A stretch of DNA of 64,000 nucleotides. It comes from a virus. The stretch is from the IMG/VR virus record IMGVR_UViG_3300002835_000025; one strand, written 5' to 3'. This document shows, piece by piece, positions 9,763 to 49,138 of this stretch. The notes under the pieces are model-generated. The model was not told where the DNA came from. It searched no databases and worked only from the letters and a program-made list of their open reading frames with translations. Every line of letters starts with the position of its first letter. The first letter of the stretch is position 1. The position numbers and the translations under genes were made by a program.

Positions 9763-9873
9763 TAGAATGCACCTGTAATTGATTCAGGTTATAACCAAAT
9801 GTATTGATAAAACCCATTAAGATATAATATACAGCATATTGATGGGTCTTGTCAACATTATTAAGGAAACAAA

Positions 9874-24794: not shown

Positions 24795-24803
24795 GGAAAT
24801 TCA

Positions 24804-26402: not shown

Positions 26403-26405
26403 ATT

Positions 26406-29621: not shown

Positions 29622-29629
29622 GAAACAAA

Positions 29630-30109: not shown

Positions 30110-30120
30110 GGAAATAAGAA

Positions 30121-31508: not shown

Positions 31509-31517
31509 AGGTTACTT

Positions 31518-31862
31518 ATGAGTCATTTTGCAAAAGTAGAAAATGGAATCGTCACGCAAGTAATTGTTGCAGAGCAAATCGTGATTGATTCTAAACTATT
31601 TGGTGACGGTTGGATTCAAACATCATACAACACTCACGGTGGAAAGCATCCAAATAATACACCACTACGAAAAAATTATGCAGGTGTTGGGTATATATAC
31701 AATGAGGGGTTAGATGCTTTTTATGCACCGCAACCTTATTTATCTTGGACGTTAGATATAGAATCTTGTTTATGGCAATCACCTGTACCTTATCCACAAG
31801 ACGGTAAAATCTATTACTGGGATGAACCGTCTGTATCTTGGGTTGAGCAAACGGTACAATAA
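31518..31862 (+). CDS. fibre-associated small protein
   Basis: MSHFAKV...WIQTSYNT...LRKNYAGVGY...WQSPVPYP; follows the Gly-rich gene. Confidence 0.7.
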   Translation: MSHFAKVENGIVTQVIVAEQIVIDSKLFGDGWIQTSYNTHGGKHPNNTPLRKNYAGVGYIYNEGLDAFYAPQPYLSWTLDIESCLWQSPVPYPQDGKIYYWDEPSVSWVEQTVQ

Positions 31863-31863
31863 C

Positions 31864-32577: not shown

Positions 32578-32580
32578 ATA
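32573..32580 (+). promoter_or_regulatory. late promoter TATAAATA
   Basis: Exact consensus 31 nt upstream of the ORF at 32612. Confidence 0.75.
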
Positions 32581-32611
32581 GTCGTATAGATACTTTATAA
32601 GGATATGAACA

Positions 32612-32842
32612 ATGGCAACACTAACCCTAAGAAATGTTAAGGGTTCACCTCTTACAAATCAAGAAGCAGACGATAACTTATCGAATCTGAATACTGAACT
32701 TGGTACTAAACAGAATGCACTAGTTTCGGGTACAAATATCAAAACTATTAACGGTGTATCATTATTAGGATCTGGTGACATCTCATCGAGTGGAGTCTCA
32801 CTAGGAAAATCAATAGCAATGTCCATCGCCTTTGGGGGGTAA
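32612..32842 (+). CDS. short fibre anchor/adaptor (LRxxKGSPLT domain)
   Basis: N-terminus is paralogous to ORF 24804; LVSGTNIKTINGVSLLGSGDI; C-terminal GKSIAMSIAFGG. Confidence 0.75.
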   Translation: MATLTLRNVKGSPLTNQEADDNLSNLNTELGTKQNALVSGTNIKTINGVSLLGSGDISSSGVSLGKSIAMSIAFGG

Positions 32843-32845
32843 TAT

Positions 32846-33241
32846 ATGGCAAATCCAAATATAATAAACATTACAGCAATGTATGGTAAGACTACATATC
32901 TAACACCCGCGGTTACAACTGCGGTCGTATTATTGACAAACCCCAGTGGTAGCGGTAAAGTATATAAAGTAAATCAAATTTTAGCAGCTAATGTTGACGG
33001 GACAAATAGTATTAACGCCACTATATCAAATTATAGTAACGGTGCAGTAGCTCAAGGTTCTGCTCCTAGTGGCGGTACTGCATATCCATTAATTTATCTA
33101 GTGTCTGTTCCGGCAGGTGCAACTCTGAATGTAGTTGATAAATCTACTTCTATTTATCTGGAAGAAGGTACATCTATTACTGTAACTTCGGGAACAGCTA
33201 GTAAAATCACTTACACTATAAGTTATGAAGACATTTCATAA
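32846..33241 (+). CDS. fibre-associated small protein
   Basis: MANPNI...SGKVYKVNQILAANVDG...VPAGATL...IYLEEG...ISYEDIS. Confidence 0.65.
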   Translation: MANPNIINITAMYGKTTYLTPAVTTAVVLLTNPSGSGKVYKVNQILAANVDGTNSINATISNYSNGAVAQGSAPSGGTAYPLIYLVSVPAGATLNVVDKSTSIYLEEGTSITVTSGTASKITYTISYEDIS

Positions 33242-33253
33242 GGAGACTTTCTA

Positions 33254-35179: not shown

Positions 35180-35189
35180 AGGACAATCT

Positions 35190-35618
35190 ATGTATATACA
35201 ACTAACAAACATTGATGCAAATACTAAAATACTTTGCACACAAGAACCAATGAAAACTGGACCAGTTTTACCAGATGTAAAAGGTTTTCAATTTAACTTT
35301 GCTAATGAAAGTATCTATCCAATAGATACAAGTTCAGAAGGAACTTATTTAGAAACTCCTTTATACTATGGTACTTGTGATGATGACGCTGATACTTCTC
35401 TAACAGGAGTAGTTAAAGTGCTTACCGAAGCAGAGTTTAATGCAGATAAACAAGCAGAACATCAAGCTAGAAAACCATATCCTTCTTGGGTAGGTGACTT
35501 AGCTACTATGAGCTGGCAACCTCCAGTTCCTTATCCTCAAGATGGCAATTATTACTATTGGGGTGAACCTACTACTTCATGGGTATTAGTTAATGCTCAA
35601 TCTGCTCCTTCAGCTTAA
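35190..35618 (+). CDS. fibre-associated chaperone-like protein
   Basis: C-terminus PYPSW...WQPPVPYPQDG..YYW.E...SWV is shared with ORF 31518. Confidence 0.65.
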   Translation: MYIQLTNIDANTKILCTQEPMKTGPVLPDVKGFQFNFANESIYPIDTSSEGTYLETPLYYGTCDDDADTSLTGVVKVLTEAEFNADKQAEHQARKPYPSWVGDLATMSWQPPVPYPQDGNYYYWGEPTTSWVLVNAQSAPSA

Positions 35619-35630
35619 TCTTGAAAAGCT

Positions 35631-35820
35631 ATGGACTTTCTAAACTTTATCACTGAAGTAGGATTTCCAATAGCGGCTGCTTGCTTGGGGACAAAATGAT
35701 TCTGGTCAACTAGGACTAGGAAATATTACTAGCTATTCTAGTCCAAAACAAGTCGGTTCGCTAACATCATGGAGTAGGATATTATCAAGTAGACACAATC
35801 TTGCTTTACAAAATGCTTAA
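35631..35820 (+). pseudogene. deletion scar: 5' fragment of a holin-like membrane protein joined out of frame to the 3' end of an RCC1-repeat gene
   Basis: 35631: MDFLNFITEVGFPIAAAC(LGTK*). 35683-35820, other frame: AWGQNDSGQLGLGNITSYSSPKQVGSLTSWSRILSSRHNLALQNA*, with no start codon. Confidence 0.75.
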
Positions 35821-35823
35821 CAA

Positions 35824-35831
35824 TATAAATA
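35824..35831 (+). promoter_or_regulatory. late promoter TATAAATA
   Basis: Exact consensus upstream of the gene run starting at 35868. Confidence 0.75.
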
Positions 35832-35867
35832 TAGAGTAAGTTTACTATTTTAATAATGAGGAATAAT

Positions 35868-36062
35868 ATGAGTTTAATTTTTACAACTAAAGGCGACCTT
35901 GAAGAATCTTTATTGGTCAAAACAGAAGGATCTGATGAATCTGAAAATGAAATTTCAAATTGGACTGAATATCATTTAGATGATGAACTTGTCAGACGTG
36001 ATGTTCATTTAATACTTAAACAACCCGCAGCATTTACAGATACCGTAATAGGAGAATTTTAA
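35868..36062 (+). CDS. small acidic hypothetical protein
   Basis: GAGGA RBS before ATG 35868; LIFTTKGDLEESLLVKTEG...WTEYHLDDELVRRDVH; stop overlaps the next start. Confidence 0.7.
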   Translation: MSLIFTTKGDLEESLLVKTEGSDESENEISNWTEYHLDDELVRRDVHLILKQPAAFTDTVIGEF

Positions 36063-36520
36063 TGGCTAATACCCAAGCAATGGCAACAACTTTCAAACAA
36101 GATATTCTTAATGGCTTACACGCATTTGGTCCATCAGTGGTTCGTGCTACTACTACTGCAGATACATTTAAAGCGGCACTTTACCTAGCATCTGCTTCAC
36201 TTGGTGCTACAACTACTGCTTATACTTCTACTGGTGAAGTTACTGGTACAGGTTATACAGCCGGTGGTGTTACTGTAGCTACTGCAACTGCACCAAGCAA
36301 TGCTGGTACTACTGCTTTCTTCACACCTTCAGCTTCAATCGTATTCTCTGGTGTAACTTTATCAACATCATTTGATGCTGTGTTAATTTATAACAACACT
36401 GCTGCTGGTAAAAATGCTGTATCGGTTCACACATTTGGTGCTCAAACAGTAACCGCTGGAACATTTACTTTAACTATGCCTACTAACGATGCTACAAACG
36501 CTTTGATTAGAATTGCATAA
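36062..36520 (+). CDS. 152-aa beta-rich virion protein (candidate filament subunit)
   Basis: FKQDILNG.H...TFKAALY...TTAYTSTGEVTGTGYTAGG...AVLIYN...GTFTLTMP...ALIRIA. Its gct/act/ggt-rich codon usage resembles gp18 and gp23, suggesting high expression. Confidence 0.75.
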   Translation: MANTQAMATTFKQDILNGLHAFGPSVVRATTTADTFKAALYLASASLGATTTAYTSTGEVTGTGYTAGGVTVATATAPSNAGTTAFFTPSASIVFSGVTLSTSFDAVLIYNNTAAGKNAVSVHTFGAQTVTAGTFTLTMPTNDATNALIRIA

Positions 36521-36609
36521 TAAATAATAATGTCTCTTATATTATTATAGGTAATTACACCATGATATAAGATGTTAGTTAACTACTTTCAAAGGATGAA
36601 GACAAGTTA

Positions 36610-39600
36610 ATGGCTTTTATATCTGGTGCTAATTCATATTTTTTATCCGATTGGGTATCCTTAGATTATACTGTTCCTGGAGTATCACCTGCAGGAACAG
36701 TATACCTCAATTCAGTTTTTCCATCTACATCTTATACATTACTTTATAATTCTTCATCGGTATCAACAGGACTAGTTTCTAATAATACTACAGTTGATTC
36801 TTTTGGAATATCATCATCAATCCAGACAGTATCAGTATTACCAATAATATCAAGTGGTGTTATCGGTAATGCTTCTACATCTTTAAATTCTAGTCTTACA
36901 AATTCTAGTATTGGATTCTTATCAGGTAATACAGGTTCTACTTCCATAAGTAACGAACCAACTAATACTACAATATTACTACAAACTAATGCAAGTTACC
37001 TATCAGTAGGAATTCCTTATCCTGTTGTTTCTGGTCCAATAACTAATAATATTACTAACACATCAACTGGCGTGATTGGTAAAAATGTTACCGTTGGTTT
37101 ATCAGGAACATTAAGTACTGGTGCAGTATCATCTCCTATTGCTAATACTAATATCACTCCTAATAATGTCATTTCTAATGGACAAACAGGAACATTGATT
37201 GGTTCCAATTCTACATCTGTTACTGGTAATTCTGTAGCATTTACAATCAATGATATTAGCAATTTTGTATCAGGTTCATACAATAACCCAGCATACTTCT
37301 TGTCAGATTGGGTAAGTATTGATTACACCGTTTATTCTAATCTGGTTGTTGGTGTTACTAGAATTGGTTTTGTTTCTAATGGATACGAAGTTTCTATAAC
37401 AGGAAATGCTGCTTCTACTTCTGTTGGAATTGAACCTAATAATCTAATGGTTCAGGTACCTAGCATAATCAATCAGACTCAGATTGGTTCTGTAACAAAT
37501 TCAAGTACGAATTCCATTAGCGGTAATTCAACATCATCTAGTATAGGATCTGTAGTCCAATCGACTTCATTGTCTGTTGTTGGTAATCTTGCTACTGGTT
37601 CTATAGGAAACGAACCAACTTATACGACAACTTCAGTAACTGGAAATGGTGCATCAACTAGCATAAATTCAGTAATAGCATCAAGCACAAATTATATTAC
37701 TGGAAATCTTGCTACAACTTCTGTTGGTAATGAACCTACCTATACAAATACATCACTTACCGGAACATCAAGTTCAGTAATACTAAATCCATTAAGCTAT
37801 TCTTATACTACTTCTATAACAGGAAATCAAAGTAATACTTCAGTCGATTCTGTTATCAAAGCAGTTGTTGCTAGCATTACTGGTAATAGCACTTCTATTA
37901 CTGTAAATAGAATCTCAACATCAGTAACCGGAACGTACAACAATCCTGCTTATTATCTTTCTGATTGGATTGAATTAGATTATACCGTTTATTCTAATCT
38001 AATTGTTGGTATAACCAGAACAGGATCGTTATCCAAAGAATACGAAGTTTCTATAACAGGAAACATTGCTACTGCTTCTATAGGAACTGAACCCAATAAT
38101 ACTACTGTACAACTATCAGGTTCAATTGCATATACTGATACTGGTTCATTATATCCAGAAAACTATAATTCTAATACAGGTATTCTGAATTCGGTATCGA
38201 TAAGTTCATTAGCAAAAATCAATACCAATTCTATTATTGGCAATTTTGCTAATACATCTATAGGAACTGAACCTAACAATACTACAGTATCAATCTCGAA
38301 TAATTCAATCTATTCTAGTATTGGTTCTACAAGTATTTCTAGTACAAAATCTGTGTCAGGCAATACTGCAGTCATTTCTATTAGTAATGAACCAACTAAT
38401 ACAGTAGTTCAATTAACAAACAACATCGGTTCTGTTGGTATTGGTTCGATAGTAACTTCTAACACATTAACATCTAGTGGATTACTTGGTTCGACTAATA
38501 CTAATTCTGTAATAGCAATAGCATCAAATTCTATATCTGGTAATGAATTATCAACTGATATAGGATCTGTTGTTCAATCCTTTAGTAATCTGTCTGGAGG
38601 AATCAGTCAGTCATATTATCTTTCTGATTGGGTTGAATTAGATTATACCGTTTACTCACATCTTATTCTTGGTATCGGTAAACTAGGAAGACCTGATAAT
38701 TCTCATATAGTAGAATTGACTGGAACTTCAGCTACTGCTTATATTGGAATTGAATCTGATAGTGTAACTTACGTTATAACAGGCAATACTGCCAACACTA
38801 ACATCAATTCAGTAACTGGAATTGTATCGGTCAATGCTTATTTGACTGGTAATAGTAGTTCTTCAAGTGTTGGTCAATTAACGATTACTAATACTAATCC
38901 AGTTACTGGTAACGTAGGAACATTCCAATCCATTCCTGTTGAAAGAAAACTATCTAACGACACGACATATTATTCATCAGATTGGGTATCGTCAGATTAT
39001 ATCGAACCTGGCCATATCATTCTTGGTACTGGTCAGATTGGTTCAGTTACTGCTAATGTAATTGCTAATCCAGGTGATGTTTTCCTATATGGAACATCAG
39101 CAACTGCTAGTATAAATTCTGTAATACCATCGCAATCAATTACTGTTGTTGGTAATACTGCTGATGTCTTTATAGGTATTCAATCTGAACAGAATACACT
39201 TTCTGTAATTGGAACATCAAGTGCAACAGCAATAGGATCTGTTGTTAAATCTAGTTCTATCAATCTAGTAGGAAATATTGCTACTACTTTGATTGGTACA
39301 GAAACTTACGACATTACATTACCTATTTCTGGTAATGGTATTATAACATCAATCAACTCAGTCCAACAAGTATTGTCTGTTGATGCCGAGTCTAATATTA
39401 CATCAATTTCTACCAGTTCATTAGACAAATTTGCATTTACTAATCTTATAGGTAATGTTGGTTCTACTTCTATAGGCAATGAACCAAATTACTCTACAAC
39501 TTCGATTCAAGGTAATACTGGTTTAGTTGTAATTTCTGATGTTGCTCAATCTAATTCTATATCAATTAGTGGTAATACAATTTCTACTGCTGTAGGAACT

Positions 39601-42600
39601 GAACCAAATAGAACTACAATATTACTAACTGGATTTACTAATAGTGTTAATATTGGTATTCTAACTAATGATATTAAAGTTGCCGTATTAGGAAATGCTA
39701 CTACCGGGTTTGTATCATCTGTCACTAATGCAAAAGTATTATCGATTAGTGGTAATTTAAGTACGTCCTCTATTGGATCTGTTTCTCAAACTGGTTCTAG
39801 TGTTTCTTCTGGTGTATCAAGTTCATTCGATACAAATACAGTTCAGTATTCTACTATAACTGGATTGACTGGTAATACTGCTACCCTTTCTATTGCTAAT
39901 GAACCTACTAATGTTACTGTTTCATTATACGGAAACGGAATAACTTCAAATATTGGTTCGATTGTATCTAAATTTAACCAAACCAATATTGTTGGTAATG
40001 GATCATTAACTAGTATTGGTTCGATTACTGGTTATAGTGTCACTACTTCTATCAGAGGTAATACTGCTTCTTCTGCTGTCGGTTCACAACCTAATAACAT
40101 TGTTCTATCAATCAATAGTGTTGGTAATGACATATTCAGTAGCATTGGAAGTGTATCCAAATTCAGTGTAACTAATATAGTAGGTAATACTGCTACTACA
40201 TCAATAGGAATTGAATCTAATAATATTACTTTGAGAATTTCTGGAGTTGGAAGTACTACTTCAATCAACTCAACAGTATTCTCTAAAGTTGTTCCAATTA
40301 CTGGTTCAAGTTCATCTATTACTCTTGACCAAATTGATTATTACAATGTCAATTCCATTGTTGGTAATACTGCTACTACTGCACTTGCCAATGAATCTAC
40401 AAATTTAGTATTAGGACTATTCGGCAATGTTGGTACAATATCAACTAGTTCTTTACCTAAGTTCAGCAATACATCCATATCCAAAACTAGTGCTAATGCT
40501 TATCTAAATTCAATAGGTCATGATAATACTACTAGCATTACCGGTATTACTAGTACAACTTCTGTTGGTACTGAACCAAATAATACTACTTTATTGCTAT
40601 CAGGCAATCTGGGTAATATTACATCAGGCAATATAACACCAAATGCAATATCGACTGCTGTAGGTTCTAGTTTAACTTCTAGCATAAGCAATACTAAAGC
40701 ATTAAGTTATTCAGATACTAGTGGCAATGAACTATTAACTTTCTTAGGTAATATCCAAGAAGATGTTAAAGTTGCTATTATTGGCAATACTGGTTCTATA
40801 TCAGTTGGTTCTGAACTTAACAATACAACTAATTCAGTAACTGGAACGTCAAGTTATTCTGCTATAGGATCTGTTGCTAAATCTGTTGCTAATAATATCA
40901 CAGGATTATCAAATACCACATCTTCAGGATTAATAATCCAATCAGTTGATGTTGGTATAAGAGGTATTACTTCCGCATTTGCTATAGGAACTGAACCTAA
41001 TAATACTATCGTTTCTGTATCAGGAATATCAGCATATTCTAATCTTGGTTTTGCTACTGGTAATACAAGCACAGATTCCACTAATGCTATTGCTACTGGT
41101 TCAGTATCTACAGTAACTCAATCATCAGAATATGCATTAAATGGTTCTTCTAGTTTAATATCAGTATCAAGTACATTAGCTAATCTGATAACAGATTCAA
41201 CTGGTATTGTATCTTCTATTGATACTGGATTCGTATTACCACAAAGTTCAGGCAATATTACTGGTAATACTGGTTCTACTTCTGTAGGAACTGAACCTAC
41301 TAATACAATAATATCAATATCGAATGCATCTGCTCAAGGTGTTGTTGGATATTCAGTACCAACAAAAGTAGTCAATTTAAGCAATACCCTTTCTAGTACC
41401 AGTGTTGGTAATTCTGGTGTTAATGTCATTATTGGAATATTAGGAAATTCTGCTAAAGGAACCTTATTTGGTGATTCATCTACTGTAGAAAGCAATTCAG
41501 TTACAGTTGCATCGACTGGTAATTCTAGTAGTATAGTATTGGGTAATCTAACCAAAATATCATCTACTAATATCAATGGTAATTCGACATTAGGATCTAT
41601 TGGTAATACGCAAAATGGATTAAACTATACCATATTAGGTAATACTGCTACTGGATTAGTTGGTAATGAACCAACCAATACTACTCTTGTATTATCTGGC
41701 AACAGCATTAGTATCCAACAAGGAATTATATCCAAAACAAGTATTACTAATGTTACAGGTAATACTGCTACTGGATCTGTTGGTAATGAACCTACTAATA
41801 CAGTTTTAGCAATTACTAGTAACACTTCCACAAACTATGTGGGAGACGTTAATAAATCCAGTGATGTTGGAATACTTACTAATGTATTAACTTCAGCAGT
41901 AGGAACTACTGGAAAAGATACTAGCACTTCTATAACAGGTATTACTGGTGCTACTTCTGTAGGAACTGAACCTACCAATACAATTGTAACGCTTTCTGGT
42001 AATACACTATTCAGTTCAATTGGATTGCCACAAGTTACCAATGACAATACTGTCAATACCATTAGTTCTTCTGGTATTGCAGGTAATGTATTATCAAAAT
42101 TAGAAATATCTAACATTGGCAACATTGGTTCATTTGATGTTGGTAATGCTTTAGCAATAATCAGTAAAAATGTATCTGGTAATAGTAGTACAGGAAATAC
42201 TAATACCGTTTCAGTATCAAGAACAACTGATATTTTTGGTATAACTGGTGCTACTTCATTAGCAAATGAACCAACTAATACTATTGTTTCTATAACAGGA
42301 ACTTCTAGTTCAATATCATTAAGTTCAGTTGCTCAAATTGGTTCTAGTGATATTACAGGAATTCCATTAACTGGATTATTGGATTCTAATTTAGTTAAAT
42401 TTAGTGTTACTAATATCCAAGGCAATACTGGTTCAACTGCTATAAGCAAAGATCCTAGCAACACATTTGTTTCTATATTTGGTAATGCTGCTTCTAGTTC
42501 TATTGATAACGTAACAACATCAAATACCATTCTTGCTATCAGTAACGTAGCAACAGCATCGATTGGAATAAGACCTTCAAATACCACTATAGGAATTTCA

Positions 42601-45600
42601 GGTAACTCTGGTTCTTCTATAGCAAACAATCTGAATCAGATTGGGTCAAATGGTGCTAATGGATTTATAGGAACTACTGGATTATCTAGTGTTGTTCAAT
42701 CTAGTTCTATAATCTTATCAGGTATAACTGGTGCTACTTCATTAGCAAACGAACCAACTAATACTATTGTTTCTATAACAGGAACTTCTGGTTATGCTAT
42801 TGCTAACAATGTAATATTCACATTGTCTTATCCAGCTAATAGCAATGTAGGAACATTACAACAAGGAACATTACTAAATTCTAATAGCATTACTGCAAGA
42901 ACAATTACCGGTTATGGTGTTCTAGCAAATGCAAATCCAGTAGTATCAAGTCTACTTAATAGCGTTACTGGTACAACTTCATTAGCAAATCAACCAACAA
43001 ATAAAGTAATTCAATTAGCAGGTATATCGAGTACTGCATCTACCAAACCATTGAATCAAGTTGGTTCTGCTTTAGGTCAAAGCAATACCGGTATAACTTC
43101 AGTAAACGATTTATACCAAGTAGGTTCCGTTGAATTAAGAGGAAATACTGGTTCTATTGTAATTGGAACCGAACCTAATAATACTATCATATTATTGTCA
43201 GGATTGTCAAGTAATATACTAACTAGTAATCTGAAACAAGTTGGTTCTGCTCTTGGCGTTTCTGCTTCAGGCACAATACAAACTAGCAATCTAAATCAAA
43301 TTGGTTCTGCTAATGGTATCGGTAACCTTGCCACAACTCAAACTAGCAATCTGAAACAAGTTGGTTCTGCTAATGGTATTGGCAATACTGCTACTATAAC
43401 TATAGGAACAGATCCTGCTAATACAATAGTATTATTATCATCAGTAACTTCTTCTGTTATACCAAATAGTGTTGACCAGTCAACCTCCATCGTTCCTTCT
43501 AATAATTCTAGTATAGTTTCGATTGGTCAAGTTCAATCTAATATAATAGCAGATTCTACTGGTAATTCAGCATCAGGTTATACGGATTCAACCGATATTA
43601 TCAGTTCAGTAGTTCCTAATGGTATCATTGCTAACATAACTTCAGGATATACTTTATCCAGTATTAGTAAAGATGTTCAAGGTACACAAAGTACTTTTGA
43701 TATTGGTCAATTTGGAAAATCTGTTTCGTGTACAGTTTCATCTGTAATTGGTTCATTGTCGTTAGGAACTGAACCTACAAACTCTGCTATATCATTAACT
43801 GGTATTACATCTAATACAGAAACAGGATTAGTATCCAGATTTAGTTATAATGAACTTTCAAGCGTTACTGGTTCTATTGAATTAGGAAGTGTATCTGAAA
43901 TTGGTTCATCTATTGCTTCAAGCAATACATCAGTTGGTTCAGTTGGATTTGTATCTAAATCATCAACTGTTGCTCTTAATGGTGCATCGACTACAATATA
44001 CATTGGAGCTAATAATGATACTCCAAGTTCTAACAATGCTACCGTTGCTGCTACTGGTATTGCATCTACTGGTATAACCGGATTTGTATCTAAATCAAAT
44101 GTTACTGGCATTGTAGGTAACACATCTACATTTGCTATAGGAAATGATCCACTCAATATAACATTACCTTTATCTGGCACATCTGGTTCAGTAAGTCCAA
44201 ATACAGTTTCAAAATCTAGTAATATTACTGTTACTGGTAATACTATAACATCTTCTATAGGCAGAGATTCGACCAATTCAACTGTATTGCTTGGAGGAGT
44301 ATCCAATACAGTTTCTATCGGTAATGTACTAGGAATAATAAGTGCTGACGTATTCAACAACTATTCAATTGGTTATATTGGAAACGTAGGTAAGTATTCT
44401 GATGTAGGAGTTACTGGTAATACTTCAGCATTTGTTATAGGAACTGAACCTAATAATACTATAGTAGCACTGAATGGAATTCTAAGTTATGGATATGTTG
44501 GTGATATAGACAAAACATCATCTGTACCAAATTATGGAAATTCAAGTTATACAGTAACTGGAAACTTATCCAAAACAAGTACTACGTCAGTATCAAACAA
44601 TCTAGTTAGTACTAATGTTGGTAATACTGATATTCAAAGCAATGCTTTTGTTAGTGGTATCATTGCTACAATATCTTCTGGTGTAGATGAGAATAATGTT
44701 CAAATAGCAATATCTGGCAATAGCATATCTGGTCTGATAAAAGCATTACCACCAATAGTATCATCAACTCCAGCTAGCAATACAATATCAACTAATGTTG
44801 GTAATGTACTAATAGACAAACCAGTATCAATAAGCAATAATATATCTACTGCTGTTGCTGGAACATTGTCAAGTAATGTACTGTCGTCCATTCAAGGTAA
44901 TACAGGTTCAACATCAGTTGGTTCAGAACCTACTAATACCACATTAACACTTTCTGGTATAGCAACATCAGTTTCAGCCAAACAATTAAACATTGTTAGT
45001 TCTTATAATGCCAATGGAAATGCAATTGTAGCAAATGCAGGAACTATATCTAAATCAATTTCTGTTGATGTTTATGGAATAGATGCGAATATATCAATTG
45101 GTATTGAGCCAAATAATATATCAGTAGTTCTTCAAGGTACTACAGGAACAGTAAGCACTCCAATTCTAAATCAAATTGGAAGTGGTGATGGGATTGGTAA
45201 TCAAATTGTTGCTATTCCTGGAACAGTACAACCTGTCGTTTCTAGTGCAATTCTTGGTATAACATCAACCATTAGATTAGGAAATGAATCTGCTGTTGAT
45301 TTATTATTACTTAATGGCAATGTTGCTTTAGGTATTACTGGTAAAGTTATTCCAATAACAACAGCAAGATCTCTTGGAATACAATCAACAGTAACTATCG
45401 GTGAATCGATACCAGTAGTATCAGGAGTGTTGTTAGGCAATTCAGCAACTATCCAAACAGGAATATCAATACCAGATGCTGACAGATATGCATTCAGTAC
45501 AGGTGTAGATTCCTCTACTGAAGTTGGGGATGTAGGCACTTCATTATTCTTAGAATTATCGTCAGTAACTGGTAATACTAACATTGCTGATGCTTCTTTA

Positions 45601-46233
45601 ACAAGATTCCCAACAGGAATAACTGTTACTGGTTCAATAGGTAATACACAAACTAATATACTGAGTTTACTGAACAGCAATGAAGTAACTGTCGATACAA
45701 CTACACTAGAATTTACTAAAACTGGTCAAGTAGCACTGTCAGGTAACACTGCAGCAATTGCTATAGGAACTGAATTATCAGTATCATACCAGTCTATATC
45801 AGGTGTGGATACCGGAAGCAGTATCGGTTCTGTTACCAACAGTCAAATTGCTAATCCTATTGCCACAGAATCTGTTGCTGATATAAATAGTGTTATAAAC
45901 GAAACTGTTGTTAGTATATCAGGCAACACTAATATCTCGTTAGTATCAGGATTCAGTCCTAAATCTGAAATTGCACCAAAAAGTGCTGTAGCAACTAGTA
46001 ATATAAATACTATAAACGGTGCTAGTTCTAAAATACTATCAGGAGTATTAAGTAATTATAGATTAGGCGAATTTATAATTCTATATCCTCCAACAAGAAT
46101 TGTTGATGTTGGTAATATGACATTTACTATGGTTTCACCTTCTAATATAGAATTTACTCAAGTTATGGTAACAAAACCAATGGTATTTGCTGAAATAGTA
46201 AAAATGAATGTTCCTATAAAAGTTACTAATTAA
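36610..46233 (+). CDS. giant 3207-aa S/T/G/N/I/V-rich protein built from ~20-aa repeats (candidate filament ruler/scaffold)
   Basis: Open 9.6-kb frame; units such as ISGNSTSSSIGSVVQSTSLS and VVGNLATGSIGNEPTYTTTS; recurring GxEPxN; five YxxSDWxxxDY motifs. Confidence 0.85.
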   Translation: MAFISGANSYFLSDWVSLDYTVPGVSPAGTVYLNSVFPSTSYTLLYNSSSVSTGLVSNNTTVDSFGISSSIQTVSVLPIISSGVIGNASTSLNSSLTNSSIGFLSGNTGSTSISNEPTNTTILLQTNASYLSVGIPYPVVSGPITNNITNTSTGVIGKNVTVGLSGTLSTGAVSSPIANTNITPNNVISNGQTGTLIGSNSTSVTGNSVAFTINDISNFVSGSYNNPAYFLSDWVSIDYTVYSNLVVGVTRIGFVSNGYEVSITGNAASTSVGIEPNNLMVQVPSIINQTQIGSVTNSSTNSISGNSTSSSIGSVVQSTSLSVVGNLATGSIGNEPTYTTTSVTGNGASTSINSVIASSTNYITGNLATTSVGNEPTYTNTSLTGTSSSVILNPLSYSYTTSITGNQSNTSVDSVIKAVVASITGNSTSITVNRISTSVTGTYNNPAYYLSDWIELDYTVYSNLIVGITRTGSLSKEYEVSITGNIATASIGTEPNNTTVQLSGSIAYTDTGSLYPENYNSNTGILNSVSISSLAKINTNSIIGNFANTSIGTEPNNTTVSISNNSIYSSIGSTSISSTKSVSGNTAVISISNEPTNTVVQLTNNIGSVGIGSIVTSNTLTSSGLLGSTNTNSVIAIASNSISGNELSTDIGSVVQSFSNLSGGISQSYYLSDWVELDYTVYSHLILGIGKLGRPDNSHIVELTGTSATAYIGIESDSVTYVITGNTANTNINSVTGIVSVNAYLTGNSSSSSVGQLTITNTNPVTGNVGTFQSIPVERKLSNDTTYYSSDWVSSDYIEPGHIILGTGQIGSVTANVIANPGDVFLYGTSATASINSVIPSQSITVVGNTADVFIGIQSEQNTLSVIGTSSATAIGSVVKSSSINLVGNIATTLIGTETYDITLPISGNGIITSINSVQQVLSVDAESNITSISTSSLDKFAFTNLIGNVGSTSIGNEPNYSTTSIQGNTGLVVISDVAQSNSISISGNTISTAVGTEPNRTTILLTGFTNSVNIGILTNDIKVAVLGNATTGFVSSVTNAKVLSISGNLSTSSIGSVSQTGSSVSSGVSSSFDTNTVQYSTITGLTGNTATLSIANEPTNVTVSLYGNGITSNIGSIVSKFNQTNIVGNGSLTSIGSITGYSVTTSIRGNTASSAVGSQPNNIVLSINSVGNDIFSSIGSVSKFSVTNIVGNTATTSIGIESNNITLRISGVGSTTSINSTVFSKVVPITGSSSSITLDQIDYYNVNSIVGNTATTALANESTNLVLGLFGNVGTISTSSLPKFSNTSISKTSANAYLNSIGHDNTTSITGITSTTSVGTEPNNTTLLLSGNLGNITSGNITPNAISTAVGSSLTSSISNTKALSYSDTSGNELLTFLGNIQEDVKVAIIGNTGSISVGSELNNTTNSVTGTSSYSAIGSVAKSVANNITGLSNTTSSGLIIQSVDVGIRGITSAFAIGTEPNNTIVSVSGISAYSNLGFATGNTSTDSTNAIATGSVSTVTQSSEYALNGSSSLISVSSTLANLITDSTGIVSSIDTGFVLPQSSGNITGNTGSTSVGTEPTNTIISISNASAQGVVGYSVPTKVVNLSNTLSSTSVGNSGVNVIIGILGNSAKGTLFGDSSTVESNSVTVASTGNSSSIVLGNLTKISSTNINGNSTLGSIGNTQNGLNYTILGNTATGLVGNEPTNTTLVLSGNSISIQQGIISKTSITNVTGNTATGSVGNEPTNTVLAITSNTSTNYVGDVNKSSDVGILTNVLTSAVGTTGKDTSTSITGITGATSVGTEPTNTIVTLSGNTLFSSIGLPQVTNDNTVNTISSSGIAGNVLSKLEISNIGNIGSFDVGNALAIISKNVSGNSSTGNTNTVSVSRTTDIFGITGATSLANEPTNTIVSITGTSSSISLSSVAQIGSSDITGIPLTGLLDSNLVKFSVTNIQGNTGSTAISKDPSNTFVSIFGNAASSSIDNVTTSNTILAISNVATASIGIRPSNTTIGISGNSGSSIANNLNQIGSNGANGFIGTTGLSSVVQSSSIILSGITGATSLANEPTNTIVSITGTSGYAIANNVIFTLSYPANSNVGTLQQGTLLNSNSITARTITGYGVLANANPVVSSLLNSVTGTTSLANQPTNKVIQLAGISSTASTKPLNQVGSALGQSNTGITSVNDLYQVGSVELRGNTGSIVIGTEPNNTIILLSGLSSNILTSNLKQVGSALGVSASGTIQTSNLNQIGSANGIGNLATTQTSNLKQVGSANGIGNTATITIGTDPANTIVLLSSVTSSVIPNSVDQSTSIVPSNNSSIVSIGQVQSNIIADSTGNSASGYTDSTDIISSVVPNGIIANITSGYTLSSISKDVQGTQSTFDIGQFGKSVSCTVSSVIGSLSLGTEPTNSAISLTGITSNTETGLVSRFSYNELSSVTGSIELGSVSEIGSSIASSNTSVGSVGFVSKSSTVALNGASTTIYIGANNDTPSSNNATVAATGIASTGITGFVSKSNVTGIVGNTSTFAIGNDPLNITLPLSGTSGSVSPNTVSKSSNITVTGNTITSSIGRDSTNSTVLLGGVSNTVSIGNVLGIISADVFNNYSIGYIGNVGKYSDVGVTGNTSAFVIGTEPNNTIVALNGILSYGYVGDIDKTSSVPNYGNSSYTVTGNLSKTSTTSVSNNLVSTNVGNTDIQSNAFVSGIIATISSGVDENNVQIAISGNSISGLIKALPPIVSSTPASNTISTNVGNVLIDKPVSISNNISTAVAGTLSSNVLSSIQGNTGSTSVGSEPTNTTLTLSGIATSVSAKQLNIVSSYNANGNAIVANAGTISKSISVDVYGIDANISIGIEPNNISVVLQGTTGTVSTPILNQIGSGDGIGNQIVAIPGTVQPVVSSAILGITSTIRLGNESAVDLLLLNGNVALGITGKVIPITTARSLGIQSTVTIGESIPVVSGVLLGNSATIQTGISIPDADRYAFSTGVDSSTEVGDVGTSLFLELSSVTGNTNIADASLTRFPTGITVTGSIGNTQTNILSLLNSNEVTVDTTTLEFTKTGQVALSGNTAAIAIGTELSVSYQSISGVDTGSSIGSVTNSQIANPIATESVADINSVINETVVSISGNTNISLVSGFSPKSEIAPKSAVATSNINTINGASSKILSGVLSNYRLGEFIILYPPTRIVDVGNMTFTMVSPSNIEFTQVMVTKPMVFAEIVKMNVPIKVTN

Positions 46234-46236
46234 AAT

Positions 46237-46479
46237 ATGATATACTATAACACGAATGATGATGCTATAAATTTGGTTGGATTTACAGTAGTACATAATT
46301 TACCTGATGCTAAATTTATTACTCAAAAGAATGAGATTGGTAAATTCAATGCATTATTTGAAGTAAAATCTGATGTGATGTTTAGTAAACTTTCTAATCA
46401 AGAAATTGGATTCACAACTAATCATTTAGTAACAGATTCATTCGTTAACATATACAAAACAAAGGGAGAACTTTTATGA
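46237..46479 (+). CDS. hypothetical protein
   Basis: 80-aa ORF tightly packed between its neighbours. Confidence 0.5.
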   Translation: MIYYNTNDDAINLVGFTVVHNLPDAKFITQKNEIGKFNALFEVKSDVMFSKLSNQEIGFTTNHLVTDSFVNIYKTKGELL

Positions 46480-46784
46480 CAGATTTTGTTCAAGGAGATA
46501 CTGGAAGTTCTATTCAGTTTACTTGTATAGATTCTAACACTTACGATCCAATGAATCTTGCCATATACACTGCTACTATAAATTGGAGAAATGCATCCAA
46601 TGTCCTAATTACTAGAAGTATGCAAAAACACGATTCCGCTAATGGTATTTTGAGATACACTTTTGGTACTGGAGAACTTGTAGCAGGAACGATGAAGTTT
46701 GATATTATTCTAACCAATATTAATACGAATCAGTATATCACATCCAGAGATGTTATTAGCATCGATGTAAGACAGAGACTATAA
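46476..46784 (+). CDS. BppU-N-like Ig-fold adaptor protein
   Basis: FVQGDTG..IQFT...PMNL..YTATI...DSANGILRYTF..GEL.AGT..FDIIL. Confidence 0.6.
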   Translation: MTDFVQGDTGSSIQFTCIDSNTYDPMNLAIYTATINWRNASNVLITRSMQKHDSANGILRYTFGTGELVAGTMKFDIILTNINTNQYITSRDVISIDVRQRL

Positions 46785-46786
46785 GA

Positions 46787-47749
46787 ATGGCCACACACTC
46801 AAGAGAACAACTTAAACAATACTGTCTTCGTGCATTAGGTGCTCCCGTACTTGAAATCAATGTAGAGGATATGCAATTAGAAGACCGTATAGATGAAGCA
46901 CTGGAATATTGGAGACAGTATCATCCAGATGGGGTTGAAAAACTCTATATGAAACACAAGATTTCAGCATCCATCATAACATTAACTACACAGACTGCTA
47001 CTTCTTTTACTGTAGGTGAAACTGTCACAGGATTAACTTCTGGTGCTACTGCCGAAGTTGCTACAGAAATCTTCGAATCATCTTCTGGTGCTAGTCTAAT
47101 GACCAAAATGGTTAAAGGTACATTTGTACCAGGTGAACACATTGTTGGTTCTAAATCGGGATACGATACGACTATAGTATCTTGTGTTCTTGGTGTATAT
47201 GATAACAAGTACATCGAAATTCCCGATTTGGTTTATGGCATAAGCAACATTCTACCAATCAGCAACAGTACAACATCGACCAATACCGTTTTCAATCTTC
47301 AGTATCAATTAAGATTAAATGACCTACATGACTTGACTTCAACATCAATGATTTACTATACAACTGCTATGAGTTATCTTGACTTGATGTCTTTTGTGTT
47401 GAACAGAGCACCATCAATCAGATTCAATCGTATGCAAGGTAGATTACATTTAGATCTAAATTGGGAAACTGATGTTACTTTAGGAACCTATGTTATTGCA
47501 GAATGCTACCGTGCATTGGATCCAGCAGAATCTACTCAAGTATGGAACGAGAGATGGTTGAAACATTATACTACTGCTTTGTTCAAAAAACAGTGGGGGC
47601 AGAATTTATCTAAATTTTCTAATATGCTTTTACCGGGTGGTGTTTCTATAGATGGTCAAGGCATATACGATACAGCAACACAAGAAATAAAAGATTTAGA
47701 AGATGAATTAGTAACATTGGCAGCACCACTCTCATGGTTTATGGGCTGA
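46787..47749 (+). CDS. gp13: neck protein
   Basis: SREQLKQYCLRALGAPVLEINV...QLEDRIDEAL...WLKHYTTALFKKQWGQNLSKF...LPGGV. Confidence 0.92.
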   Translation: MATHSREQLKQYCLRALGAPVLEINVEDMQLEDRIDEALEYWRQYHPDGVEKLYMKHKISASIITLTTQTATSFTVGETVTGLTSGATAEVATEIFESSSGASLMTKMVKGTFVPGEHIVGSKSGYDTTIVSCVLGVYDNKYIEIPDLVYGISNILPISNSTTSTNTVFNLQYQLRLNDLHDLTSTSMIYYTTAMSYLDLMSFVLNRAPSIRFNRMQGRLHLDLNWETDVTLGTYVIAECYRALDPAESTQVWNERWLKHYTTALFKKQWGQNLSKFSNMLLPGGVSIDGQGIYDTATQEIKDLEDELVTLAAPLSWFMG

Positions 47750-47753
47750 TACT

Positions 47754-48407
47754 ATGCCACGGAATAAATATTTTACAATGGGTACTACTTCCGAACAGAA
47801 TGTTTGGGAGGATATTATCATCGAATCATTAAAGATTTATGGTCAGGATGTTAGATACATTCCAAGAACTTTGATTGCTAAAGATGAAATACTTGGTGAG
47901 GATAGATTATCACAATTCAATAGTCAATATCCAATAGAAGCATACTTTGAGAATATAGATAACTTTGAAGGTCAAGGGTCATTCATTCAAAAGTTTGGTT
48001 TGATGGTTGAACAATCTGCTACATTAGTAATTGCTAGAAAGCGTTGGGAACAACTTATTGGAACTTTTGGAACTACCATTCTTCCAAACAGACCTTGTGA
48101 AGGTGATTTGATTTACTTTCCACTATCAAAGGGATTGTTTGAAATAAAGTTTGTGCAACATCAGGATCCATTCTATCAAATTGGAAAACTTTACGTTTAC
48201 AAACTGCAAATCGAATTGTTCCAATATGCTAGTGAAAAGATCAATACTGGTATTGATGAGGTTGATGTGTTTGAAACTTTGAAATCGTTTGATGTAGACA
48301 TTACTGCCAATACTGATACTCAACAATCTTATGGCGATAATGATAAGTTTATAGATAAAGCAACTGATGTTATCTTCTCAGAAACAAATCCATTCGGTGA
48401 ACTATAA
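47754..48407 (+). CDS. gp14: neck protein / head closure
   Basis: EQNVWEDIIIESLKIYGQDVRYIPR...KFGL...RPCEGDLIYFP...LFEIKFV...PFYQIGK. Confidence 0.92.
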   Translation: MPRNKYFTMGTTSEQNVWEDIIIESLKIYGQDVRYIPRTLIAKDEILGEDRLSQFNSQYPIEAYFENIDNFEGQGSFIQKFGLMVEQSATLVIARKRWEQLIGTFGTTILPNRPCEGDLIYFPLSKGLFEIKFVQHQDPFYQIGKLYVYKLQIELFQYASEKINTGIDEVDVFETLKSFDVDITANTDTQQSYGDNDKFIDKATDVIFSETNPFGEL

Positions 48408-49138
48408 TGCTAAATAATCCTCCATATTACCATGGTATTATAAAGAAAGCAATTGTAGCATTCGGACGGATGTTTTCAGAAATTCAAATTGAGCGAATGG
48501 ACGAAAATGGTGACGTATTACAAACCATAAACGTACCTATTGCTTATGGTCCTAAAGAAAAATGGCTAGTTCGACTGGAACAAGATCCATCATTGGATAA
48601 CAATGTTAATACTATACTTCCTAGAATGTCGTTTGAAATAGTTGGATATTCTTATGATGCAACTAGAAAGTCCAACAAAATGACAAAGGTTGCTAGTTAT
48701 AACCAAACTACATCTGTATTAAAGACTCAATTCAGTCCTGTACCATATAATCTAGATATAGAATTAAACTTGTTAACCAAAACAACAGAAGATGCATTAG
48801 CAGTAGTTGAACAAATCTTGCCAGTATTCACTCCAGACTATACATTATCAATTAATGCTATTCCAGACTTGAATATTGTTAATGATGTTCCTATTATATT
48901 GAATGGAGTTAGTTTCCAGGATTCTTATGATGGCGATTTTCAATCAAGACGGGAAATAGTTTATACCTTTAGCTTTACCATGAAAGTTAATATATTTGGA
49001 TCAATAACATCATCAGGCGTTATCAAGAAAGCCAATGTCACTTTACCAAATCAACCATTGGATTACTTTGTTAAGTCTAATGTACCAGATACTTTTATAA
49101 TAGATACTTGGTCAAATAATACACCAACTGGATTCTAA
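48407..49138 (+). CDS. gp15: tail sheath stabiliser / tail terminator
   Basis: IVAFGRMF...VPIAYGPKEKWL...LPRMSFE...PVPYNL...VEQILPVFTP. Confidence 0.92.
   Translation: MLNNPPYYHGIIKKAIVAFGRMFSEIQIERMDENGDVLQTINVPIAYGPKEKWLVRLEQDPSLDNNVNTILPRMSFEIVGYSYDATRKSNKMTKVASYNQTTSVLKTQFSPVPYNLDIELNLLTKTTEDALAVVEQILPVFTPDYTLSINAIPDLNIVNDVPIILNGVSFQDSYDGDFQSRREIVYTFSFTMKVNIFGSITSSGVIKKANVTLPNQPLDYFVKSNVPDTFIIDTWSNNTPTGF

What the first reader, a model, noticed from the sequence alone, without database searches (positions are those of the whole stretch)
36062..46784. Candidate ruler-templated virion filament: a 3207-aa protein of ~20-aa repeats paired with a 152-aa subunit and a BppU-like adaptor, at the neck (wac/fibritin) locus
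Seen: after a late promoter (35824) come a 152-aa beta-rich protein with capsid-like codon bias, then a 3207-aa protein made almost entirely of a ~20-aa unit (roughly 150 units). The unit consensus is about [IVL][TS]GNxxxxS[IV]G-x8, with GxEPxN every 2-3 units. An 80-aa ORF and a BppU-N-like Ig protein follow, directly before gp13. Known: T4 encodes neck fibritin (wac) at this position, and donor-strand complementation builds chaperone-usher pili. Inference: the repeats are too short and too poor in large hydrophobic residues to fold as domains. Each could instead donate a strand to one copy of the 152-aa protein, making the giant gene a length ruler for a beaded filament hundreds of nm long, anchored at the neck through its C-terminus.
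Basis: partly seen in the sequence, partly recalled or inferred. Interest (0 to 1): 0.9.

Follow-up and report, generated by a model that had tools for sequence, protein, structure and literature searches.

The report
Giant beads-on-a-rope phage neck fibre
A T4-like environmental phage encodes, next to its neck genes, a 3207-residue "rope" of about 160 docking repeats and an abundant 152-residue "bead" protein, which most likely form a beads-on-a-string whisker of a kind solved recently in a few phages, here about 15 to 80 times longer than any solved example.

Summary
ORF 36610-46233 (3207 aa) is about 160 tandem 20-aa units. It is flanked by a 152-aa protein with major-virion-protein codon bias, an 80-aa ORF and a BppU_N-like Ig protein, directly before gp13/gp14/gp15.

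Small bead dimers strung on a "rope" by beta-strand complementation have been solved in podophages GP4 and A1002 and in myophages Bas63 and Sf14.

Main evidence:
- The p152 model (pLDDT 85.5) has GP4 Fiber I as its top Foldseek hit in the PDB, followed by Bas63 whisker chains.
- p152 homologues lie next to rope-like ~20-22-aa repeat ORFs in 10 of 11 genomic contexts. None was found in 78 control loci.
- An Ig-like adaptor gene follows the rope, at the neck locus.

New here:
- Scale: about 160 sites, against 2 to 11 bead dimers in solved structures.
- Rope length varies (768-3207 aa) among relatives, yet is exactly conserved between two variants with dS 0.63.
- The bead family is very large and unannotated.

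Binding was not tested, because the complex predictor was unavailable. No sequence-level link to Pfam Gp80 was found. Earlier agents of this scan reported the same kind of module in other genomes.

The parts
35824..35831 (+). TATAAATA, a T4-late-promoter-like motif in the intergenic gap before the cassette
   Evidence: present; the window-wide count is not above chance; position 36 nt before the p64 start.
35856..36062 (+). p64/p68: a small acidic protein that travels with the bead gene. The likely start is 35868, giving 64 aa as in relatives. Role unknown.
   Evidence: Homologues lie directly upstream of p152 homologues in T4-like relatives and in unrelated 60-70-kb phages: L092, L093, L098, L099, L100 (phmmer E 1e-5 to 9e-40). 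dS is 0.025 against L084.
36062..36520 (+). p152: the predicted bead (whisker / Fiber-I-like) subunit, with an N-terminal strand and helix followed by a beta-sandwich. High-copy product.
   Evidence: - phrog_644; more than 8000 clusters at 90% identity.
- AF2 model pLDDT 85.5, pTM 0.83.
- Foldseek PDB top hit is 8jou_a, GP4 Fiber I (prob 0.98, TM 0.50/0.55); ranks 2, 3 and 7 are Bas63 9mt4 chains.
- VIA-align Z 7.6, 7.3 and 6.8 to GP4, Bas63 and Sf14.
- CAI 0.669; dN/dS 0.016.
36610..46233 (+). The 3207-aa rope protein: about 160 tandem 20-aa units, each with two [hydrophobic]-[S/T]-G half-sites (Gly at positions 5 and 13).
   Evidence: No Pfam or PHROG hit. Relatives carry 768-939-aa versions with the same unit. 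Against L084, dN/dS is 0.31 and G5, G13 and hydrophobic position 3 are the best-kept positions.
36637..39009 (+). N-terminal (probably distal) zone with five Y[FY]xSDW[VI]xxDY aromatic motifs at residues 10, 229, 448, 669 and 787 (units 1, 12, 23, 34, 40). The 939-aa homologue has only one, at its extreme N-terminus.
   Evidence: (family D13).
46057..46233 (+). C-terminal non-repeat tail of about 58 aa with alternating beta-strand-like segments. Proposed anchor that interlocks with the Ig-like adaptor.
   Evidence: The equivalent tail is present in the 939-aa homologue, whose stop overlaps the start of the adaptor gene. The anchor role is inferred from the orientation in Bas63 and GP4 (PMC12609058).
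46237..46479 (+). p80: a small ORF of unknown role. It is present only in the 3207-aa-rope variants and is as diverged as the rope.
   Evidence: dS 0.64, dN 0.20. Absent from L005. No homologue in the other loci.
46476..46784 (+). p102: an Ig-like (BppU_N-like) beta-sandwich, the proposed collar / fibre-tail adaptor.
   Evidence: Pfam BppU_N E 1.3e-4, below the cut-off. The Atlas model has TM 0.74-0.85 to BppU_N-type clusters. It is conserved directly after the rope gene in L004, L005, L092 and L094-97.
46787..49138 (+). gp13, gp14 and gp15 neck and tail-completion genes (context). This is the position where T4 carries wac.

Best explanation
The cassette p64 - p152 - 3207-aa protein - (p80) - p102 encodes a neck-anchored 'beads-on-a-rope' whisker.

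Proposed mechanism:
- The 3207-aa protein is a single extended chain, the rope.
- Each of its roughly 160 twenty-residue units offers two short [I/V/L]-[S/T]-G strands.
- These strands run through the grooves of a p152 dimer and complete its incomplete beta-sandwiches.
- Up to about 160 dimers would therefore be strung end to end.
- The non-repeat C-terminal tail interlocks with the Ig-like p102, which sits as a collar on the gp13/gp14 neck. The N-terminus, with its aromatic motifs, is the free end.
- Rope length sets fibre length. That is roughly 0.4 um at the A1002 spacing of 27 A per dimer, and at most about 1 um if the chain is fully stretched. The 939-aa ropes of sister phages would give about 0.1-0.3 um.

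What is shown: the repeat anatomy; the fold resemblance of p152 to solved bead proteins; the gene linkage across unrelated phages; the expression bias; and selection on the rope.

What is inferred: binding; stoichiometry; extended geometry; the attachment site; and function, which is probably reversible host or particle capture, or head-tail bracing, as proposed for GP4 and Bas63.
For: (1) Fold.
- The p152 model has pLDDT 85.5.
- Of 350,542 PDB chains, the Foldseek top hit is GP4 Fiber I, 8jou_a (prob 0.98, 144 columns, TM 0.50/0.55). Bas63 whisker chains are at ranks 2, 3 and 7 and Sf14 at rank 23.
- VIA-align gives Z 7.6 (116 residues aligned, rmsd 3.3), 7.3 and 6.8.
- In an exhaustive search of 48,161 chains, only 6 reach Z>=5. 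All six are virus tail or fibre parts, among them GP4 and Sf14.
- The model has the N-terminal strand plus helix that the Bas63 paper describes for whisker dimerisation (PMC12609058).
- The Atlas's nearest named cluster is 'GP4 fiber I gp80' (score 0.87, a lead only).

(2) Linkage.
- p152 homologues have a rope-like ORF within 8 kb in 10 of 11 distinct contexts. These are the window clade, L092, L093 (weak), L098, L099 (two ORFs), L100, L102, DSL-LC04 and CRP-345. Looped-profile scores are 25-422 or the period is 20-22.
- The maximum score is 20.6 among 743 ORFs in 594 kb of T4-like gp13 loci without p152.
- In reverse, two rope-like hits of a whole-library search that had enough flanking DNA (P0128, P0140) both have p152 homologues a few genes upstream.

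(3) Same gene grammar as the solved systems.
- In GP4, gp80 (PF23140) is directly followed by gp79, whose strongest self-similarity lags are 20, 10 and 40 aa. The 93-aa gp77 adaptor lies nearby.
- In FelixO1 and Bas63, the collar-with-rope and whisker genes are adjacent.

(4) Stoichiometry signal. CAI is 0.669 for p152 (like gp19), 0.536 for the rope and 0.415 for p102.

(5) Selection.
- The rope has dN/dS 0.31.
- Gly5, Gly13 and hydrophobic position 3 are 82-89% conserved, against about 60-70% elsewhere.
- The length is identical at 3207 aa despite dS 0.63.

(6) Published structures show that exactly this mechanism exists: rope strands complete incomplete whisker sandwiches, with 2, 5 or 11 dimers per rope (PMC12609058, PMC13730344).
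Against: - There is no sequence-level link between p152 and the known beads. No PF23140 hit appeared at E<=10 for 20 family members. hhalign probability against GP4 gp80 and the FelixO1 whisker was 0.1.
- The structural scores are middling (Foldseek E 0.05, Z below 8).
- The best exhaustive hit is a different protein, a 1031-aa chain of Klebsiella phage KP1 (Z 10.8). A Bxb1 tail-tip chain ties with GP4.
- The fold also occurs as a domain of 'tail collar fibre' proteins.
- One p152 context (L104) has no detectable rope within 10 kb.
- The rope's composition (30.6% ILVFMWY, strict period) is also what a self-folding beta-helix would show.
- A fibre carrying about 320 subunits per rope would weigh about 5 MDa. 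With 6-12 ropes per virion that rivals the capsid, which is unprecedented.
- p102 does not hit the GP4 adaptor family PF23148.
Confidence: 0.66

Rival explanations
1. The 3207-aa protein is a self-folding fibre, either a monomeric beta-solenoid with one 20-aa coil per unit (about 75 nm) or a trimeric beta-helix or beta-spiral. p152 is then a separate virion part, such as a decoration, fibre joint or tip, that is merely co-transcribed.
For: - The strict 20-aa period, Gly/Asn at fixed positions and alternating hydrophobics are typical of beta-solenoids.
- 30.6% of residues are large hydrophobics.
- The p152 fold also occurs inside conventional tail-collar fibre proteins.
- The region upstream of gp13 in related phages holds ordinary fibre genes.
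Against: - It does not explain why p152 homologues accompany ~20-22-aa repeat ORFs in unrelated phage backbones.
- It does not explain why p152 is expressed like a major virion protein.
- It does not explain the top PDB similarity to bead proteins.
- It does not explain the 10/20-aa periodicity of the gene next to GP4 gp80.
- No solved-structure relative of the repeat was found by sequence.
Confidence: 0.2
2. It is a rope-and-bead assembly, but not a free filament. The beaded chain is wound on the capsid, neck or tail as a cage or brace, so rope length reflects the surface to be covered rather than reach.
For: - GP4 Fiber I docks onto the capsid.
- A1002 chains wrap the tail tube 'vine-like'.
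- Bas63 whiskers contact the sheath and the capsid decoration proteins (PMC13730344, PMC12609058).
- The exact conservation of 3207 aa at dS 0.63 would fit a geometric constraint.
Against: - Sister phages with 94% identical gp13 and the same neck genes carry ropes of 939 aa. A 3.4-fold difference is hard to reconcile with covering the same virion surface.
- No data on virion morphology exist.
Confidence: 0.12
3. The giant ORF is a non-functional low-complexity read-through or an assembly artefact of a repeat.
For: Biased composition. No database family.
Against: - Three assemblies give the same 3207-aa frame.
- DNA repeats are only 60-80% alike.
- dN/dS is 0.31, with position-specific conservation.
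- Homologous ropes exist in many phages.
Confidence: 0.02

Closest known systems
Fiber I complex of Ralstonia podophage GP4 (gp80 dimers on a separately encoded 'rope' protein, docked on the Ig-like gp77 fibre-tail adaptor; PDB 8JOU; Zheng et al. 2023, as described in PMC12609058 and PMC13730344)
   Same: - The small bead protein is the top Foldseek PDB match of p152.
- The rope is a separate gene next to the bead gene.
- A roughly 93-102-aa Ig-like adaptor gene lies nearby.
- The GP4 gene next to gp80 (gp79) has 10/20-aa periodicity, like the 20-aa unit with two half-sites here.
   Different: - GP4 has five dimers per rope, against about 160 units here.
- GP4 is a podophage tail, against a T4-like myophage neck.
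- There is no detectable sequence similarity of bead, rope or adaptor.
- I could not verify that gp79 is the published rope. It is not in the PDB by sequence.
Whisker-collar complex of Felixounavirus myophages Bas63 and Sf14 (PDB 9MT4, 9C39; PMC12609058)
   Same: - It belongs to a contractile-tailed phage and sits at the neck.
- Whisker dimers are strung 'like beads on a string' on a rope that completes their incomplete sandwiches.
[quoted passage not shown]
- p152 aligns to the whisker chains at Z 7.3 and 6.8.
   Different: - There the rope is a roughly 50-residue N-terminal extension of the 166-aa collar and holds two dimers.
- Here the rope is a separate 3207-aa protein, and the bead is larger (152 against 110 aa).
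Chain-like fibre of Pseudomonas podophage A1002 (gp40/gp41 dimers on the fiber-dock region of nozzle-rope protein gp39; PMC13730344)
   Same: It is the longest solved example: 11 dimers on about 270 rope residues over about 300 A. That gives about 24 residues and 27 A per dimer, which I used to scale this fibre.
   Different: - There the rope is part of a nozzle protein.
- Two bead paralogues are used.
- The chain wraps the tail tube. Here there is one bead gene and a rope about 12 times longer.
T4 fibritin (wac) and the bead-chain neck fibre of Anabaena myophage A-1(L) (gp82-gp81-gp80; PMC10966104)
   Same: - The gene position matches wac, just before gp13.
- These are neck-attached accessory fibres.
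- The A-1(L) fibre is also beaded and about 100 nm long.
   Different: - Fibritin is a trimeric coiled coil with a foldon.
- A-1(L) beads are trimers joined head to tail without a rope. Neither uses a templating chain.

Membership tests
Beads-on-a-rope (chain-like) phage fibres: GP4 Fiber I / Bas63-Sf14 whisker-collar / A1002 | Bead: a stand-alone protein of about 110-170 aa with an N-terminal helix and an incomplete beta-sandwich (fold of GP4 gp80 and Bas63 gp5) | tested here: met
   - Model pLDDT 85.5.
- Foldseek top PDB hit is 8jou_a (prob 0.98, TM 0.50/0.55), with Bas63 chains at ranks 2, 3 and 7.
- VIA-align Z 7.6, 7.3 and 6.8.
The scores are middling, so this holds at fold level only.
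Beads-on-a-rope (chain-like) phage fibres | Bead belongs to Pfam PF23140 (Gp80) by sequence | tested here: not met
   No PF23140 hit at E<=10 for 20 members of the p152 family. hhalign probability was 0.1 against GP4 gp80 and against the FelixO1 whisker. By contrast, the FelixO1 whisker itself hits PF23140 at E 2e-4.
Beads-on-a-rope (chain-like) phage fibres | Rope: a chain of serial short docking strands, encoded next to the bead gene or fused to a collar or nozzle | tested here: met
   - About 160 units of 20 aa, each with two h-[S/T]-G half-sites.
- The rope gene starts 89 nt after the bead gene.
- Bead and rope co-occur in 10 of 11 contexts, against 0 of 78 control loci.
- GP4 gp79, next to gp80, has lags of 20 and 10.
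Beads-on-a-rope (chain-like) phage fibres | Rope strands complete the bead sandwich (beta-augmentation); the rope is not folded on its own | not testable with these tools
Beads-on-a-rope (chain-like) phage fibres | An Ig-like collar or fibre-tail adaptor ties the rope to the neck or tail | tested here: inconclusive
   p102 is an Ig-like BppU_N-type sandwich (Pfam E 1.3e-4, below the cut-off; Atlas TM 0.74-0.85). It always follows the rope gene. It does not hit PF23148 (Gp77), and no fold comparison with the Bas63 collar could be run.
T4 fibritin (wac) | Trimeric alpha-helical coiled coil with a C-terminal foldon | tested here: not met
   - No fibritin family hit.
- The sequence is beta-type 20-aa repeats with 6.7% charged residues.
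Only the gene position is shared.
Self-folding beta-solenoid / triple beta-helix fibres | The repeat region folds autonomously, or as a homotrimer, into a stacked beta structure | not tested
No sequence relative among solved structures.

The most novel reading that the evidence does not exclude
Every one of the roughly 160 units binds a p152 dimer. Each virion would then carry 6-12 beaded whiskers of 0.4-1 um, with about 320 subunits and about 5 MDa each. Together they would rival the capsid in mass and be the longest templated appendage known on any phage. The rope gene would act as a heritable, selected length ruler (768, 859, 939 or 3207 aa in sister lineages) that tunes the capture radius for sparse planktonic hosts.
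Probability: 0.3. Interest if true: 0.85.

Novelty: new variant of a known kind. Interest (0 to 1): 0.66.

Why it matters
Rope-and-bead fibres were recognised only in 2023-2026, in four or five cultured phages, with 2 to 11 bead dimers per rope. This locus has four consequences.

- **Scale.** The design appears to scale by more than an order of magnitude, and it sits at the wac position of an abundant environmental T4-like lineage.
- **Size of the family.** The bead family is very large and unannotated. Each of two searches reached its 8000-candidate scoring limit, with nearly all candidates at E<=0.001.
- **A natural length series.** Closely related phages carry ropes of 768 to 3207 aa. That makes the 'rope as ruler' idea directly testable by EM or by co-expression.
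- **Annotation.** It gives a rule for many 'hypothetical' phage genes: a protein of about 140-150 aa of phrog_644 type, plus a neighbouring ORF with a 20-22-aa [h][S/T]G repeat, sometimes with a LamG tip. It may also explain some hair-like whiskers seen on aquatic myoviruses.

Tried and rejected
- The first p152 fold, with a shallow alignment, failed (pLDDT 50.5), and its fold search was meaningless. A 35-sequence alignment with a second subfamily fixed it.
- tblastn of the giant against 50,697 phage records found nothing, probably because of the low-complexity filter.
- The word-indexed homologue search at near length found nothing.
- PDB sequence searches with rope homologues and with the p152 profile found nothing relevant.
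- Pfam and PHROG gave nothing for the rope, p64 or p80.
- An HMMER domain search with a 20-aa profile was too insensitive, finding 39 units. I replaced it with a looped-profile Viterbi.
- I looked for a terminator or structured attenuator between p152 and the rope that could set the stoichiometry. No terminator-like site was found, and the RNA fold z-score was -0.89.
- GP4 gp79 could not be confirmed as the published rope. It is absent from the PDB by sequence, and the GP4 paper is not in the library.
- No whole genome is held for the window.
- The identities of the two other top structural matches (KP1/Lilla1 9f4a_AY and Bxb1 9d93_Ra) could not be resolved from the library.
- Rejected: fibritin membership, an assembly artefact, and a head-decoration role for p152. 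The last rested only on gene position near capsid genes in small phages.


Full report
**What is there.** The window is the structural module of a T4-like myovirus. It holds baseplate and fibre genes, then gp13, gp14, gp15, terminase, sheath, tube, portal, protease, scaffold and gp23. Its nearest cultured relatives are pelagimyophages and cyanomyophages.

- a 64/68-aa ORF;
- p152 (36062-36520);
- a 3207-aa ORF (36610-46233);
- an 80-aa ORF;
- p102 (46476-46784), with a sub-threshold BppU_N match.

**The repeat.** Motif spacings are multiples of 20 residues. Autocorrelation peaks at lags 20, 40 and 60 (0.18-0.21, against 0.10 for shuffled sequence). A looped 20-position profile trained by Viterbi tiles the protein from end to end into about 160 units. 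Of these, 140 are exactly 20 aa, and phase slips occur at only about a dozen places. The score is 2024 bits, against at most 1 for shuffles.

Each unit has two half-sites: hydrophobic position 3 with [S/T]4 and G5, followed by N6, and hydrophobic position 12 with G13. The protein is 52.5% S/T/N/G, 30.6% large hydrophobic and only 6.7% charged.

At DNA level the copies are 60-80% alike, with one 97% pair. The gene is therefore old, stable and assemblable.

**It is a real, selected gene.** Two other metagenome assemblies (L084, L085) carry p152 at 99% identity and a rope of exactly 3207 aa. That rope aligns to the window's without net indels but is only 72% identical.

| Gene | dS | dN |
|---|---|---|
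| rope | 0.63 | 0.195 |
| p152 | 0.18 | 0.003 |
| p64 | 0.025 | 0.0 |

 G5, G13 and hydrophobic position 3 are the best-conserved unit positions, at 82-89%.

Sister phages with gp13 94% identical and p152 83-86% identical carry the same cassette, but with ropes of 939 aa (L004, L005, L094-97) or 859 aa (L092). A 768-aa version exists in the protein library. Length is thus polymorphic between lineages but conserved within one.

**The lead.** The Atlas's nearest named cluster to p152 was 'Podophage GP4 fiber I protein gp80' (score 0.87, a lead only). Two papers in the library describe the architecture.

In the myophage Bas63 (and Sf14), dimers of a 110-aa whisker protein have an N-terminal helix and an incomplete sandwich. 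They are strung 'like beads on a string' on an N-terminal rope of an Ig-like collar protein at the neck. [quoted passage not shown] In GP4 the rope is a separate protein holding five dimers (PMC12609058).

In A1002, 11 dimers of 147- and 171-aa proteins form augmented beta-sheets with a rope-like region about 300 A long in a nozzle protein (PMC13730344).

**Test 1: fold of p152.** With a 35-sequence alignment the AF2 model reached pLDDT 85.5 and pTM 0.83. It has an N-terminal strand (residues 4-7), a helix (10-16) and a beta-sandwich.
- Foldseek against 350,542 PDB chains ranks GP4 Fiber I (8jou_a) first (prob 0.98, TM 0.50/0.55, E 0.05). Bas63 connector chains come second, third and seventh, and Sf14 is at rank 23.
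- VIA-align gives Z 7.6, 7.3 and 6.8 for these.
- An exhaustive VIA search of 48,161 chains finds only six with Z>=5, all virus tail or fibre parts. The top hit is a 1031-aa chain of Klebsiella phage KP1 (Z 10.8) that I could not identify. A Bxb1 tail-tip chain (Z 7.9) ties with GP4.
- BFVD shows many small uncharacterised phage proteins with this fold, and also domains of 'tail collar fibre' proteins.
- At sequence level there is no link to PF23140. A MAFFT alignment shows only motif-like correspondences.

So the resemblance is at fold level, specific enough to rank first, but not proof of homology.

**Test 2: co-occurrence.** p152 belongs to phrog_644. I scored every ORF in p152-bearing loci with the looped profile. 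A rope-like ORF is adjacent or within 8 kb in these contexts:
- the window clade, L092, L098 (a 71-kb non-T4 phage), L099 (two ORFs), L100 and L102 (period 22, 55% self-identity);
- phage DSL-LC04 (period 22) and roseophage CRP-345 (period 20);
- weakly, L093.

Only L104 lacks one. In 594 kb of gp13-anchored T4-like loci without p152 (743 ORFs, many of them S/T/G-rich fibres), the maximum score is 20.6, below every positive.

In the other direction, an HMMER scan of 1.84 billion representatives with the 939-aa rope found 80 proteins. Many have a LamG-like N-terminal domain followed by 'ALTGNAATGSVGTVxP..TV' 20-aa repeats. The two with enough flanking DNA (P0128, P0140) both have p152 homologues upstream; a third (P0133) lies on a 2.5-kb contig with no flank. 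A small acidic protein (the p64 family) also travels with p152 across phage types.

**Test 3: gene grammar of solved systems.**
- In GP4, gp80 (PF23140, E 6.5e-41) is followed directly by the 325-aa gp79. Its strongest self-similarity lags are 20, 10 and 40 aa ('IDLTGSGLLE'-type 10-mers). The 93-aa gp77 adaptor (PF23148) is two genes further on. I could not confirm that gp79 is the published rope.
- In FelixO1, the Bas63 collar homologue (166 aa; confirmed by PDB match 9mt4_G) and the whisker (110 aa; weak PF23140 hit) are adjacent.
- The collar's rope is about 50 residues for two dimers. A1002 uses about 270 residues for 11 dimers.

Both figures point to about 20-24 rope residues per dimer. 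Here that means one dimer per 20-aa unit, with its two half-sites, rather than one monomer per unit.

**Test 4: expression proxy.** Against a gp23/gp18/gp19 reference, p152 has the highest CAI of all other genes (0.669; gp19 scores 0.683). The rope is average (0.536) and p102 is lowest (0.415). This fits a many: one: one stoichiometry.

**Model and its limits.** The most likely reading (about 0.66) is as follows.
- p102 forms an Ig-like collar on the gp13/gp14 neck.
- The non-repeat C-terminal tail of the rope interlocks with it. In the 939-aa version the rope stop overlaps the adaptor start.
- The rope extends outward, carrying up to about 160 p152 dimers.
- The aromatic Y[FY]xSDW motifs mark the distal N-terminal zone. 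There are five, spaced about 11 units apart, in the giant. There is one, at the extreme N-terminus, in the 939-aa form.

Scaling from A1002 gives about 0.4 um. Full extension gives about 1 um.

Not shown here: binding, occupancy, the number of ropes per virion, the attachment site, and function.

The main rival (about 0.2) is a self-folding beta-helical fibre with p152 as an unrelated partner. A geometric variant (about 0.12) has the beaded chain wrapped on the particle.

**Comparison and novelty.** This is not fibritin: there is no coiled coil and only the locus is shared. It is not a chaperone-usher system either. It is best filed as a new variant of the rope-and-bead fibre, with these differences:
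- the rope is a separate, giant gene;
- it has about 160 sites, against 2 to 11 bead dimers;
- the phage is T4-like;
- the bead family is sequence-unrelated to PF23140.

Earlier agents of this scan reported rope-and-bead modules in other genomes. The kind is therefore evidently widespread, and the extreme scale and the natural length series are what is special here.

Noticed in passing
window 35856-36062; L092:9805-9999, L093:5965-6156, L098:7458-7712, L099:4111-4320, L100:2324-2524: A small acidic protein of about 64 aa (motif W.E[WY].L.GELV.RD[VA]H..LK) sits directly upstream of p152 homologues in T4-like phages and in unrelated 60-70-kb phages. It may be a third fixed member of the module, perhaps a chaperone or cap. 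Its function is unknown.
   Followed up: partly
proteins P0127, P0128, P0133, P0140 (loci L099:8001-9764, L100:3958-5415): Many rope relatives carry an N-terminal LamG-like domain of about 250 aa before the 20-aa repeats. Some also have a charged helical C-terminal tail. This suggests ropes with a lectin tip. L099 has two rope-like ORFs side by side.
   Followed up: partly
L106 (GP4, MH638294) 8948-9925, minus strand: GP4 gp79, the gene after fibre-I gp80, has Gly-rich 10-aa strands with self-similarity lags of 20, 10 and 40. It is probably the published 'rope', but it is not in the PDB by sequence and has no Pfam family.
   Followed up: partly
L093:6685-7662: In one 165-kb relative, p152 is followed by a 325-aa non-repeat ORF whose N-terminus looks GIY-YIG-like (possibly a homing endonuclease insertion). 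The only rope-like ORF there is weak and lies 4.5 kb downstream.
   Followed up: no
window 24800-35700 compared with L084:1-9700: The fibre-gene region upstream of the cassette is almost entirely different between the window and the L084 variant, although p64 and p152 are near-identical. So p64-p152 is a conserved island between two fast-changing segments. Window 28-32 kb also has raised GC (0.41-0.45 against about 0.34).
   Followed up: partly
window 42238-42310 and 42721-42793: This is the only near-identical (97%) DNA repeat pair inside the rope gene, 483 nt apart. All other copies are 60-80% alike. It may mark a recent local duplication or gene conversion.
   Followed up: no
window 45882-45889 and 46002-46009: Two TATAAATA motifs lie inside the 3' end of the rope gene, just upstream of p80 and p102. 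They could be internal late promoters for the adaptor genes, but the motif is not over-represented in this AT-rich window.
   Followed up: no
PDB 9f4a_AY (Klebsiella phage KP1/Lilla1) and 9d93_Ra (mycobacteriophage Bxb1 tail tip): These are the best or tied structural matches of p152 outside the GP4/Bas63/Sf14 set (Z 10.8 and 7.9). I could not find what the chains are. They may be further bead-like or collar-fibre domains.
   Followed up: no
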